From the human T2T-CHM13v2.0 reference genome, Homo sapiens: a DNA stretch of 64,000 nt. Shown piece after piece: positions 1,914 through 32,712 of this stretch. The stretch lies in the NCBI RefSeq assembly GCF_009914755.1, contig NC_060925.1. One strand, 5' to 3'. Below the pieces are notes generated by a model. It had not been told where the DNA came from, did no database searches, and saw only the letters and a program-made list of their open reading frames with translations. Positions within the stretch are counted from its first letter, which is position 1. The number at the start of each line of letters is the position of its first letter. The position numbers were made by a program, and so were the translations under genes.

Positions 1914-1991
1914 CTCCTCCACATCTTCATCCAACTGCTCATTAGGATCCACTTCTCTTACTAAGTCCTGTAATTTCTTCTTGGTCAATAC
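1914..1991 (-). CDS. TAF12: TAF12 coding exon (start of histone-fold region), VLTKKKLQDLVREVDPNEQLDEDVEE; gene continues beyond the left edge of the window
   Basis: Minus strand reads taactttag|GTA TTG ACC AAG AAG AAA...GAG GAG|gtaagg. 78 nt, phase 0/0, and directly continues ...SPENNQ from the previous exon, matching the known TAF12 protein. Confidence 0.97.
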
Positions 1992-5874: not shown

Positions 5875-6042
5875 CTGATTGTTTTCAGGGCTAAGACGAC
5901 CTCCTGCCCCAGGAGTGCCTGGTATCTTTACCACTGCAGTACTATTGGCCATGGAGCCTTGTGGAGGGGTGCTGGCTGGTTCCGGTTTTATGGATGAGAA
6001 ATTGGAGAGGTTGATTAGGGCTGAGGGGCCAAACTGGTTCAT
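5875..6042 (-). CDS. TAF12: TAF12 exon 2, canonical coding part (MNQFGPSALINLSNFSSIKPEPASTPPQGSMANSTAVVKIPGTPGAGGRLSPENNQ). Second in-frame Met at 5952 is the start of the short TAFII15 form
   Basis: 56 codons matching the TAF12/TAFII20 N-terminus; ATG at 6042; donor CAG|gtatca at 5874. Confidence 0.97.
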
Positions 6043-6126
6043 AATCTGCCGAGCTTTGGACTTCAGCTCATAGAGCTTATCGAGATCCTGTTTCTTTTTG
6101 GAGCTGTGAGGACCAAGGCCAATTAA
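6043..6126 (-). other. TAF12: 5' part of TAF12 exon 2: 84 nt, 28 stop-free codons in frame with the canonical ATG (LIGLGPHSSKKKQDLDKLYELKSKARQI). UTR in the canonical mRNA, coding in N-extended isoforms
   Basis: Acceptor cttttcttctccag|TTAATT (AG at 6128-6127); 84 nt is exactly 28 codons to ATG 6042. Confidence 0.9.
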
Positions 6127-6647
6127 CTGGAGAAGAAAAGCACAAGAATTAGCTCTAGAAGAACCTGTAATAAAGGATGAATCTTGAGAGTAAAAAGAGG
6201 CCTGGTGCAATGGCTCACAACTGTAATCCCAGCACTTTGGGAGGCCCAGGTGGTAGCATCACTTGAGCCCAGTAGTTCAAGACCAGCTTGGGCAACATAG
6301 CGAGACCTAGTCTCTACCAAGAAAAAAAAAAAAAAAAAAAAGTAAGTAAAATGAGGTCTGTTAGACTTTGAGGGTTCTTCAGTATATATGGAATGGTGAC
6401 CATTTAATATCCACAGGTTAAAAATTGAGGGAATGAAGAATGTTTATTACTCTCAGCTGATATTTAGAAACCATCTCATTTCCAAATATTAAGTGAAATA
6501 GTCCACAAAATTTAAACAAGGAAGCAAGTAAATGAAATGAAGAATCTTATGTACAAAAATAAACTAGGGCCGCGTGCAGTAGCTCATGTCTGTAATCCCA
6601 GCATGTTGGGTGCCTGAAGTGGAAGGACCACTTGAGACAGGAGTTCA

Positions 6648-7906: not shown

Positions 7907-7978
7907 AGCTATCTGAGTGTCTAGATCTTTAATTACATCAGCAACAGCTGTGAGCCCGGTGAAATGAGAGGCAGCCAT
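7907..7978 (-). CDS. TAF12: Alternative TAF12 coding exon (exon 7907-7991) encoding MAASHFTGLTAVADVIKDLDTQIA
   Basis: catttacag|gtagcttttgaaaATGG (A at -3, G at +4), 24 sense codons, then GCT|gtaagt consensus donor at 7906. Phase 0, so in frame with exon 2; lies in unique, non-repeat sequence. Confidence 0.75.
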
Positions 7979-8412
7979 TTTCAAAAGCTACCTGTAAATG
8001 AACAACTGGCATCAAGCACCATCCTTGCCATGGAACCATTTTAGTTGAATGGCCTGGTACATCTTCACCAACCAGGATCCAAGCAAACTGGATGTGGAGA
8101 AATATATCTCCTTTTCCTTAGTGGGAGCCAAGACAAACATCTCCATCTCTTTCATAAGCAACTTTGAAAATTAATTAATGATGATTATGGCACATATAGA
8201 CCACCTTCTTATAAAATGAATGTCTGCTGTTAGGGATAAACTAACAGCATATGGAATATTTTATTGGGCAAAATTGTGGGATATGAGCCTGCAGGAATTA
8301 TATCAATGGCCTTCAGAACTTGGTAAAAGTTGGCAATATAAATGTCTACTGTATCTATCCTACTCTTGTCCCTAGTCCTGAGTTCCTCCTCACCACACTG
8401 TCTGACTTTCTA

Positions 8413-26365: not shown

Positions 26366-26960
26366 AGGAGCTTGGGTACTCACAGCCCTGTTCCGAGACT
26401 CAGGAACTCGGAGTCTCAAAGCCCGGATCCCGTCCCCAAAGAAGCCCCAGTCTTCACTGCCCGCTTCTGTTCCCTTCCAAACTCAAGTTTTCTCTGTCTG
26501 CTTCTGCCCCTCAGGAACCTAAGTCTTCGCTGCCCCGTTTCTGAATCCTTAGGAGCCCGGGTCTTCACTGTCCCGCTTCTGCCTCTTAGGAGCCCAAGTC
26601 CTCACCGCTCCACTTTTACCTCTCCGGAGCCTGTGTCTTCACGCCCCGTTCCTTTCTGACCCTTTCCTCGTAGGAGTGCGGGTCCTCATAATCCTGCTCC
26701 TCTCAGACCACTTTCCCTCAGATGCCGGAGAACTCGCATCCGTCCCCGTTCCCTAAGTCCCGTCTTGGAGCCCGGGTCCCCACAGCCGCGTCTTCTCCGA
26801 GCCTGATCCTCTCAGTCAGTCCCTTCCCAAGAGCCTGAATCCTCACAGCCCCGTCTCGTCCACAACCTGGTCCTTCGAACACTGACCCACTGTAGGTCTG
26901 GGTCCTGACTCCCTCCTCCCGCTCTTGTTCCTCAACTGCCAGGGCCCAAGACTCACAGGC
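26366..26960. repeat. Degenerate ~37-bp tandem repeat (about 14 units, consensus ~AGGAGCCCRRGTCYTCACNGCCCCGYTTCTG) at the start of TAF12 intron 1
   Basis: Unit starts at ~26366, 26402, 26440, 26477, 26513, 26551, 26588, 26625, 26672, 26766, 26797, 26829, 26894 and 26941; spacing 36-38 bp in the core. Confidence 0.8.
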
Positions 26961-27060
26961 AGCAGCGTCTATCTCCCCATGATATGCAGAGACTGCCCCA
27001 GTGAAGCGTTCGTCTCAGCAGCCGGTCCGACTGCGCGGCCCTCCCCGACTACTTCCGGCA
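26957..27060 (-). other. TAF12: TAF12 non-coding first exon (TSS end approximate)
   Basis: CpG-rich; ends CTGCCT|gtgagt (donor 26956-26951); directly downstream (minus strand) of the ETS/NRF1 promoter motifs. Confidence 0.85.
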
Positions 27061-32168: not shown

Positions 32169-32198
32169 AGCCGCTGAGAGCCGGTATTCCAACGCCAT
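32169..32198 (-). CDS. TAF12: Alternative upstream TAF12 first exon inside the RNU11 promoter region, encoding MALEYRLSAA
   Basis: Minus strand ctcATGGCGTTGGAATACCGGCTCTCAGCGGCT|gtaggt: 10 codons, phase-0 donor at 32168-32163, in frame with exon 2; CpG-rich context with ETS-like ACCGGAAG at 32251-32258. Confidence 0.6.
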
Positions 32199-32323
32199 GA
32201 GACGCCTTCTGTCGTGAGCAGTTGACAAGAAAGACCCAGCACTTACTGCAACCGGAAGGAGCGGTTCCTCCCTCGCTCGCGCAGCCGCTCTTCCCCGCCA
32301 CTCCCTCGGTGCCCGCCAGCACA

Positions 32324-32352
32324 TTCCCAGCAAGCCCTGAGTATATTTGCAT
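32324..32352 (+). promoter_or_regulatory. U11 distal sequence element: SPH/ZNF143 site plus octamer
   Basis: TTCCCAGCAAGCCCTGA 32324-32340 and ATTTGCAT 32345-32352, about 215-240 nt upstream of the U11 start, the typical DSE position. Confidence 0.85.
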
Positions 32353-32502
32353 ATCAACTCACTACATTTTTTTCTTCTAACTAAAAAATCGAAAGGACAA
32401 ATTCCAGATTCTCCTTGTGAAGTCTTCCTTTCAGTTCAGAAGAAATGGAATTCGCTCTTCAACTTCAGGAAGTTGAAATAAAGAGTTGCTTGGATTTTGT
32501 GT

Positions 32503-32521
32503 TCACCTTTACCAAAAAATG
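32503..32521 (+). promoter_or_regulatory. U11 proximal sequence element (SNAPc site)
   Basis: TCACCTTTACCAAAAAATG starting at -61 relative to U11 +1; fits the TCACCNTNA...AAA PSE pattern. No TATA box, consistent with a Pol II snRNA gene. Confidence 0.85.
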
Positions 32522-32563
32522 GATTTGGTAACACTGCCACCCTGCTTTGGTGACAGAGAAAGC

Positions 32564-32697
32564 AAAAAGGGCTTCTGTCGTGAGTGGCACACGTAGGGCA
32601 ACTCGATTGCTCTGCGTGCGGAATCGACATCAAGAGATTTCGGAAGCATAATTTTTTGGTATTTGGGCAGCTGGTGATCGTTGGTCCCGGCGCCCTT
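32564..32697 (+). ncRNA. RNU11: U11 small nuclear RNA (minor spliceosome)
   Basis: AAAAAGGGCTTCTGTCGTGAGTGGCACACG...AATTTTTTGG (Sm site ~32650-32659)...GGTCCCGGCGCCCTT matches human U11; an intact PSE and DSE indicate the functional gene. Confidence 0.97.
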
Positions 32698-32712
32698 TCT
32701 TTACTGTTATAT

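What the first reader, a model, noticed from the sequence alone, without database searches (positions are those of the whole stretch)
6043..6128. A 28-codon open adaptor in TAF12 exon 2 accepts three different phase-0 upstream exons: a switchable N-terminus
Seen: the exons ending at 32169, 26957 and 7907 each end on a codon boundary counted from their own ATG, and exon 2 starts in phase 0 with no stop before ATG 6042. With Met1 (6042) and Met31 (5952) this predicts up to five TAF12 starts. The adaptor has a basic patch (SKKKQDL) resembling the start of the histone-fold exon (TKKKLQDL). Inference: promoter choice, exon inclusion and start-codon selection together set the TAF12 N-terminus. Three exons sharing phase is about 1 in 27 by chance, and these were picked after the fact, so that statistic is weak.
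Basis: partly seen in the sequence, partly recalled or inferred. Interest (0 to 1): 0.7.

Follow-up and report, generated by a model that had tools for sequence, protein, structure and literature searches.

The report
Hidden ancient N-terminus of human TAF12
The 84 bases labelled as untranslated leader in front of the human TAF12 start codon are the second half of an old, conserved protein motif that is only read when a small upstream exon is spliced in, so the textbook 161-residue TAF12 is a shortened form.

Summary
The 28-codon open frame at 6043-6126 (minus strand) is real, but 28 open codons arise by chance in 19-30% of controls. Exon 7907-7991 (ATG 7978, 24 codons, phase 0) plus the adaptor encodes a 52-residue extension. 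Predicted TAF12 proteins of mammals, birds, reptiles, sharks, sturgeon, lamprey and hagfish carry it, and acorn worms and a starfish carry a recognisable motif. In lamprey and hagfish the human Met1 position is not Met, so there the extension is the normal N-terminus. It is better conserved than the accepted N-terminal tail and folds as two confident helices. Exon 26957-27032 cannot feed the frame in human, because its ATG meets an in-frame TAG after three codons. The 32169 exon is open but has several upstream ATGs and no counterpart in 143 proteins held. A 2022 paper lists this stretch as a strongly PhyloCSF-positive candidate non-AUG extension. Its Ribo-seq data show no in-frame footprints there. 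My reading: the stretch is leader in the main mRNA and coding in a minor exon-including mRNA. The SKKKQDL/TKKKLQDL likeness is not significant.

The parts
6043..6126 (-). The 'adaptor': the first 84 nt of TAF12 exon 2, 28 open codons (LIGLGPHSSKKKQDLDKLYELKSKARQI). It is 5' leader in the selected RefSeq mRNA and coding when exon 7907-7991 is spliced in. It encodes the loop and most of helix 2 of the conserved N-terminal motif.
   Evidence: frame. (70 of 103 hits cover it). (conservation). (PhyloCSF120 327.9 in the published table). (helix 33-56).
7907..7991 (-). Cassette exon ('exon 1b'), 85 nt, with an AG acceptor and a GTAAGT donor. ATG 7978-7976 sits in context TTGAAAATGG. It has 24 codons (MAASHFTGLTAVADVIKDLDTQIA) ending in phase 0, and is the start of the long TAF12 form.
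   Evidence: Its peptide precedes the adaptor in 35 of 143 proteins held. The hub table lists it as an exon of other RefSeq TAF12 transcripts.
5875..6042 (-). Accepted coding part of exon 2: Met1 at 6042 and Met31 at 5952.
   Evidence: Ribo-seq peaks of 1925 and 779 reads lie 4 nt after each A of ATG, and in-frame density rises from 43 to 118 reads per codon after Met31.
26957..27032 (-). Main first exon. It holds a 3-codon upstream ORF, ATG GGG AGA TAG (26980-26969), then ACG CTG CTG CCT in the adaptor's frame.
   Evidence: A Ribo-seq peak of 6000 reads lies at this ATG.
6063..6071 (-). Out-of-frame mini ORF, ATG AGC TGA, inside the adaptor.
   Evidence: MS*. Ribo-seq peak of 667 reads.
32169..32693 (-). 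Far upstream alternative first exon, antisense to RNU11. ATG 32198 (10 codons) and ATG 32324 (52 codons) are open in phase 0. Four more ATGs lie upstream.
   Evidence: Its peptides have no counterpart in 0 of 143 proteins.
6457..6474 (-). Human counterpart of the 'MVSKYQ' mini-exon that precedes the adaptor in predicted proteins of marmot, elephant seal, narwhal and a bat. In human it is followed by CT, not GT.
1914..1991 (-). Exon 3, the start of the histone fold (VLTKKKLQDLVREVDPNEQLDEDVEE).

Best explanation
The 84 nt have two uses. In the main mRNA (exon 26957-27032 joined to exon 2) they are leader. Ribosomes meet a 3-codon upstream ORF that ends in TAG, then start at Met1 (6042) or Met31 (5952).

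In a minor mRNA that includes the cassette exon 7907-7991, the strong-context ATG at 7978 opens a frame running through the exon's 24 codons and the 28 adaptor codons into Met1. This gives a TAF12 of 213 residues.

The added 52 residues are one unit, two amphipathic helices joined by a G-x-G-P-H loop. They are the ancestral N-terminus of TAF12 in deuterostomes. The exon junction cuts the most conserved piece, TQIA|LIG.

Selection on this long form is what keeps the 'leader' open and protein-like.

Shown: the frames, the splice signals, conservation as protein, the absence of Met at the Met1 position in lamprey and hagfish, and the helix prediction.

Inferred: that human cells make the 213-residue protein, probably in tissues or at levels that pooled Ribo-seq does not capture, and that the hairpin is a protein-binding module.
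For: Frames and splice sites.

With the 84-residue translation of exon 2 as query, 103 proteins scored E<=0.001, and by my count of that table 70 cover 100% of it, adaptor included. Identity is 94-99% in mammals, 83-86% in birds, 74-77% in sharks and 55% in sturgeon.

The exon-1b peptide directly precedes the adaptor in 35 of 143 proteins held. One such cluster is a 213-residue form with 243 member sequences, and another is a 212-residue bird form with 89.

A profile of the 52 residues finds lamprey (60% identity) and hagfish (42%). It also finds an acorn worm in a scan of 1.84 billion representatives. From that acorn worm, two more acorn-worm genera and a starfish were found.

In lamprey and hagfish the residue aligned to human Met1 is L or A.

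Squirrel long form against lamprey: exon 1b 14/24, adaptor 17/28, accepted tail 16-22/56, histone fold and C-terminus 92-93/105.

Invariant in 12 deuterostomes: Q22 I23 L25 P30 L39 L42 A49.

Short reading frames from other species run ...QIA then VSK, which places the same GTAAG donor at the same spot.

The AlphaFold model gives helices 12-26 and 33-56 with block pLDDT 81-89.

Independent nucleotide evidence: Fedorova et al. 2022 (PMC9789052, supplementary file 9) list these 84 nt plus 12 nt of exon 1 with a PhyloCSF score of 327.9 over 120 mammals.
Against: Pooled Ribo-seq from the same paper shows no in-frame translation of the adaptor. Outside the mini-ORF zone the three frames give 4.2, 6.4 and 2.1 reads per codon. 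The accepted coding sequence gives 43 in-frame reads per codon between Met1 and Met31. The paper's table has no proteomics count for the extension.

Most long forms in other species are automatic gene models. Only open frames get predicted, so the sample is biased.

I could not see which exons the human transcript with 7907-7991 joins, nor its annotated coding sequence.

No long form from a teleost or an amphibian was among the hits.

The fold rests on 12 sequences, and pTM is 0.34.
Confidence: 0.8

Rival explanations
1. Non-AUG start on the main mRNA. Ribosomes begin at ACG or CTG just after the TAG in exon 1 and make a 32-residue extension. This is the reading implied by the published PhyloSET list.
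For: The frame is open for 32 codons from the TAG and has a PhyloCSF score of 327.9. Predicted proteins of tamarin, rabbit and others read through the end of exon 1 into the adaptor, 7 of 143.
Against: There is no initiation peak at these codons: 6, 3 and 4 reads at the +4 positions, against 1925 at Met1. There is no in-frame periodicity. The conserved motif continues upstream into exon 1b, and the junction splits its most conserved part. This start would therefore make half a motif.
Confidence: 0.1
2. One reading: three different upstream exons (ending at 32169, 26957 and 7907) each supply an ATG that reads through the adaptor, so promoter and exon choice switch among up to five N-termini.
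For: All three exon ends are in phase 0 from an ATG. Other mammals' models show several different exons in front of the adaptor: MVSKYQ/E in 4, exon-1 read-through in 7.
Against: Exon 26957-27032 has an in-frame TAG in human. The 32169-exon peptides have no counterpart in 0 of 143 proteins, and ATG 32324 has four ATGs in front of it. The human MVSKYQ counterpart lacks the GT donor. Phase agreement is expected often, given several ATGs per exon.
Confidence: 0.05
3. The 84 nt are conserved only as an RNA leader element, through upstream ORFs or structure that tune Met1 and Met31 use, and are never translated in frame.
For: There is heavy ribosome occupancy at the two tiny ORFs, 6000 and 667 reads, and none in frame.
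Against: Substitutions are conservative at the protein level back to hagfish and starfish, where the stretch lies inside the only reading frame. PhyloCSF is strongly positive.
Confidence: 0.03

Closest known systems
TAF12 entry in the 'PhyloSET' of candidate non-AUG N-terminal extensions (Fedorova et al. 2022, Nat Commun 13:7910, PMC9789052). I read passages of the main text, one row of supplementary file 9, and parts 118-120 of file 5.
   Same: Same 84 nt (plus 12 nt of exon 1), same frame, and the same conclusion that the frame is under coding-type selection in mammals.
   Different: The paper treats it as a possible non-AUG start on transcript ENST00000373824 and notes no Ribo-seq rank. Here the signal is traced to an AUG in a separate conserved exon (7907-7991), and the motif is followed beyond mammals to jawless fish, acorn worms and a starfish.
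The 20 kDa and 15 kDa forms of human TAF12 from Met1 and Met31. The names are recalled. PDB entry 1H3O calls the molecule '20/15 kDa subunits'.
   Same: N-terminal variety of TAF12 through start-codon choice. Both starts show Ribo-seq initiation peaks.
   Different: Those two forms come from one mRNA by leaky scanning. The long form needs a different splice pattern and adds, rather than removes, a conserved folded element.
TAF12 of lamprey, hagfish, acorn worms and starfish (P0105, P0107, P0117, P0126, P0140-P0143).
   Same: They carry the same motif, hydrophobic helix, then TQIAL-x-G-P-G-P-H, then a K/Q-rich helix with DL-x-KL, ahead of a variable linker and the histone fold.
   Different: In these animals the motif is part of the only predicted protein. 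The invertebrate proteins have extra residues in front and a long Q-rich linker.
The field's view of TAF12 as 'a single HFD' (Antonova et al. 2019, Genes Dev, PMC6672047, passages read) and the solved human TFIID and SAGA structures.
   Same: Same gene, same histone fold (PF03847).
   Different: All 59 human chains in 34 PDB entries are the 161-residue form, and no PDB chain matches the extension profile better than E 0.85. The N-terminal motif is not mentioned in the passages read.

Membership tests
AUG-started N-terminal protein form made by including an alternative 5' coding exon | Upstream exon with an ATG whose frame runs without a stop into the main start codon | tested here: met
   ATG 7978, 24 + 28 open codons, phase 0 at both junctions.
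AUG-started N-terminal protein form made by including an alternative 5' coding exon | Usable splice signals on the cassette exon | tested here: met
   AG before 7991 and GTAAGT after 7907. The same donor position is seen in other species' read-through frames.
AUG-started N-terminal protein form made by including an alternative 5' coding exon | A human transcript that joins this exon to exon 2 | not testable with these tools
   The hub table lists 7907-7991 as an exon of other RefSeq TAF12 transcripts, but gives neither its partners nor its coding sequence.
AUG-started N-terminal protein form made by including an alternative 5' coding exon | The added peptide is conserved as protein | tested here: met
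   Published PhyloCSF score for the adaptor.
AUG-started N-terminal protein form made by including an alternative 5' coding exon | The added part is translated in human cells | tested here: inconclusive
   Pooled Ribo-seq shows no in-frame signal over the adaptor. The tissues are not resolved, and there is no proteomics count.
Non-AUG-started N-terminal extension | Open frame from the last in-frame stop to the annotated ATG, with coding-type conservation | tested here: met
   32 codons from the TAG at 26969. PhyloCSF 327.9.
Non-AUG-started N-terminal extension | In-frame ribosome footprints and an initiation peak at a near-cognate codon | tested here: not met
   3 to 6 reads at the expected positions, and the in-frame share is 101 of 305 reads.
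Non-AUG-started N-terminal extension | Conservation ends near the proposed start | tested here: not met
   The conserved motif continues for 24 more residues encoded by a different exon.
TAF12 / TFIID_20kDa histone-fold family (PF03847) | Match to the family profile above its cut-off | tested here: met
   Long forms P0024, P0105 and P0117 score E 6e-36 to 1e-31. The extension matches no Pfam family.
Leader with regulatory upstream ORFs | Short ORFs in the leader that ribosomes occupy | tested here: met
   ATG GGG AGA TAG (peak 6000) and ATG AGC TGA (peak 667). Any effect on Met1 or Met31 use was not tested.

The most novel reading that the evidence does not exclude
The 213-residue form is the ancestral TAF12, and the 161-residue 'canonical' protein is a jawed-vertebrate invention. 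The invention became possible through a new internal Met and skipping of exon 7907-7991. Inclusion of that exon is a regulated switch that adds a second functional module, a 52-residue helical hairpin, to TFIID and/or SAGA. That module has been missing from every biochemical and structural study of the human complexes.
Probability: 0.35. Interest if true: 0.7.

Novelty: new member of a known kind. Interest (0 to 1): 0.5.

Why it matters
TAF12 is a core subunit shared by TFIID and SAGA, and it is described as a single histone fold. All 34 solved human entries use the 161-residue form. A second element conserved from starfish to human would be a new handle on how these complexes are contacted or sorted, if it is present only when a small exon is included. 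The case also warns that a strong coding signature in a leader can come from an unannotated AUG-started splice form rather than from non-AUG initiation. That affects how lists of conserved 'non-AUG extensions' are read.

Tried and rejected
- **Internal repeat idea:** the adaptor's KKKQDL against exon 3's KKLQDL gives local score 23, reached by 469 of 2000 shuffles. Rejected as evidence.
- **Openness of 28 codons as evidence on its own:** rejected, since 19-30% arise by chance.
- **Pfam on three long forms:** nothing in the extension at E<=1 except a 0.33 chance match.
- **PDB by sequence with the extension profile:** best E 0.85, to cytochrome bc1 and talin. Treated as chance.
- **Literature on TAF12 itself:** a search on TAF12 with TAFII20 and TAFII15 listed 12 papers. 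Searches for TAF12 with PhyloCSF, for TAF12 isoform, splice or variant phrases (8 papers on plants and Candida) and for TAF12 with N-terminal-extension terms (top 15 without TAF12) gave nothing on a long human form. One search did list the Fedorova paper.
- **Peptide strings:** two searches found 0 papers.
- **Mudge et al. 2019 supplements:** no TAF12 in the 9 of 11 files searched.
- **Earlier findings of this scan:** not open to the session.
- **Not run:** a complex prediction, because I claim no binding partner.
- **Not possible:** I could not see cluster members, so I do not know whether a human 213-residue record exists in the databases.

Full report
**What is in the sequence**

TAF12 lies on the minus strand. 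Exon 2 runs 6126..5875 and follows an AG. Counted from its first base, the 84 nt before ATG 6042 read LIGLGPHSSKKKQDLDKLYELKSKARQI without a stop. The other two frames have stops.

Exon 7907-7991 has an AG acceptor and a GTAAGT donor. It holds ATG 7978 in the context TTGAAAATGG, followed by 24 open codons (MAASHFTGLTAVADVIKDLDTQIA) that end on a codon boundary.

Exon 26957-27032 holds ATG 26980, eight codons from the exon end, but reads MGR*TLLP. The TAG at 26971-26969 closes the frame.

Exon 32169-32693 has six ATGs. ATG 32198 (10 codons) and ATG 32324 (52 codons) are open in phase 0, and four ATGs precede 32324.

An open run of 28 codons is also weak evidence. It occurs in 3831 of 20000 shuffles of the 84 nt and in 6017 of 20000 random 84-nt stretches of the window.

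**Related proteins**

The translation of exon 2 (84 residues) was searched against longer proteins. It gave 103 hits at E<=0.001 among 202 candidates. By my count of the table, 70 cover the whole query, including the 28 'leader' residues. Identity to the query by group:

| Group | Identity |
|---|---|
| Mammals | 94-99% |
| Birds | 83-86% |
| Turtles | 82% |
| Sharks | 74-77% |
| Sturgeon | 55% |

I then looked at what precedes the adaptor in all 143 proteins held:

- The exon-1b peptide precedes it in 35. These include a 213-residue cluster with 243 member sequences and a 212-residue bird cluster with 89.
- A read-through of the end of exon 1 (...LLP then LIG) precedes it in 7. These include MGRQTLLP in tamarin and rabbit, where the human TAG position reads Q.
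- MVSKYQ or MVSKYE precedes it in 4.
- Anything like the 32169-exon peptides precedes it in 0.

A profile of the 52-residue extension (alignment A1) found 92 proteins at E<=0.01. Among them were lamprey at 60% identity and hagfish at 42%. The same profile found 36 proteins at E<=0.001 in 1.84 billion representatives. One of these is a 288-residue invertebrate protein. That protein is from the acorn worm Glandiceps. Its first 62 residues found four more proteins among 25 candidates: two other acorn-worm genera (three proteins) and the starfish Asterias.

No long form from a teleost or an amphibian appeared.

**What the alignments say**

In lamprey and hagfish the residue aligned to human Met1 is L or A. 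Their proteins begin at the exon-1b Met, so the extension is their normal N-terminus.

Squirrel long form compared with lamprey:

| Segment | Identical residues |
|---|---|
| Exon 1b | 14/24 |
| Adaptor | 17/28 |
| Accepted N-terminal tail | 16-22/56 |
| Histone fold and C-terminus | 92-93/105 |

After the histone fold, the extension is therefore the best-kept part of the protein.

Across 12 deuterostomes, Q22, I23, L25, P30, L39, L42 and A49 are invariant. The exon junction falls inside the most conserved piece, TQIA|LIG.

Short reading frames from other species run ...QIA and then VSK. This is the translation of the same GTAAG donor at the same place.

Pfam sees only the histone fold.

An AlphaFold model of the squirrel long form, built on 12 aligned sequences, gives helices 12-26 and 33-56 with block pLDDT of 81-89. 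Residues 69-103 are disordered, and pTM is 0.34.

**Published data on the same stretch**

Fedorova et al. 2022 (PMC9789052) list TAF12 transcript ENST00000373824.8 among 60 genes with a phylogenetically supported extension. The extension is 32 codons long. It consists of the 84 nt plus the 12 nt of exon 1 that follow the TAG. Its PhyloCSF score over 120 mammals is 327.9, and the table gives no Ribo-seq summary and no proteomics count.

Their pipeline removed extensions that overlap annotated coding exons. At that time, therefore, no human coding sequence was annotated over the adaptor. TAF12 appears in their Supplementary Fig. 2 as a gene with high coding coverage but no ranked extension.

I summed their per-base source data:

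| Region | Reads per codon by frame |
|---|---|
| Adaptor, outside the zone of a tiny out-of-frame ORF | 4.2 in frame, 6.4 and 2.1 in the other two |
| Met1 to Met31 | 43.2 in frame, 7.9 and 7.8 |
| After Met31 | 118 in frame |

Initiation-type peaks lie 4 nt after the A of each ATG:

| ATG | Peak reads |
|---|---|
| Exon-1 ATG (26980) | 6000 |
| Mini ORF ATG AGC TGA (6071-6063) | 667 |
| Met1 (6042) | 1925 |
| Met31 (5952) | 779 |

The ACG and CTG codons after the TAG carry 3 to 6 reads at the corresponding positions.

**Reading**

The frame is under strong coding-type selection, yet it is not visibly translated on the main mRNA in the pooled cell data. The conserved unit also begins in a different exon that has its own strong ATG.

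The simplest account is this. The 84 nt are leader in the main mRNA and coding in a minor mRNA that includes exon 7907-7991, and the long form is the older one.

Non-AUG initiation would produce half a motif and has no footprint support. A purely RNA-level role does not explain protein-like conservation in animals where the stretch lies inside the only reading frame.

What the hairpin does is not known. Two amphipathic helices joined by a tight loop suggest a binding surface, but that is inference.

**Known or new**

The coding signature of the 84 nt is in print, and long forms are predicted automatically in many species.

I found no paper describing a long human TAF12 or this motif. The searches were made, and the supplement search is. 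A review of TFIID evolution states that TAF12 'consists of a single HFD' (PMC6672047, passages).

All 59 human TAF12 chains in 34 PDB entries are the 161-residue form.

The Met1 and Met31 forms (20 and 15 kDa) are recalled knowledge. They are supported here by the PDB molecule name and the Ribo-seq peaks.

**Limits**

- There was no vertebrate genome DNA, so I made no codon alignment of my own.
- Gene models in other species are biased towards open frames.
- The human transcript structure and coding sequence for the cassette exon were not visible.
- The Ribo-seq data are pooled and mostly from cultured cells, so tissue-specific use cannot be excluded or shown.

Noticed in passing
window 26969-26980 (minus strand): The main first exon carries a 3-codon upstream ORF (ATG GGG AGA TAG) with the largest Ribo-seq peak of the whole leader (6000 reads). 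Predicted proteins of tamarin and rabbit read MGRQTLLP here, so the stop may be a recent change that closed an older in-frame start.
   Followed up: partly
window 6063-6071 (minus strand): A start-stop-like mini ORF (ATG AGC TGA) lies out of frame inside the adaptor and has a Ribo-seq peak of 667 reads. It overlaps the conserved codons for Y-E-L-K, so it may persist as a by-product of the protein sequence or may tune Met1 use.
   Followed up: partly
window 6457-6474 (minus strand): This is the human counterpart (ATG..CAG, MVSKYQ) of a mini-exon that precedes the adaptor in predicted proteins of marmot, elephant seal, narwhal and a bat. In human it is followed by CT instead of GT. A weaker GT lies six bases further on, still in phase.
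   Followed up: partly
window 5952 (Met31), minus strand: Ribo-seq shows an initiation-type peak (779 reads) at Met31 and a 2.7-fold rise of in-frame density after it. This fits substantial use of the second start, the 15 kDa form.
   Followed up: partly
P0119 (squirrel, 142 aa); window exons 7907-7991 and 1914-1991: One predicted protein joins the exon-1b peptide directly to exon 3 (…QIA then VLTKKK), skipping exon 2. Exon 2 is 252 nt and symmetric in phase, so this keeps the frame.
   Followed up: no
window 32169-32693 (minus strand) against RNU11 32564-32698 (+): The far upstream TAF12 first exon runs antisense through the U11 snRNA gene and through exon 2 of TAF12-DT.
   Followed up: no
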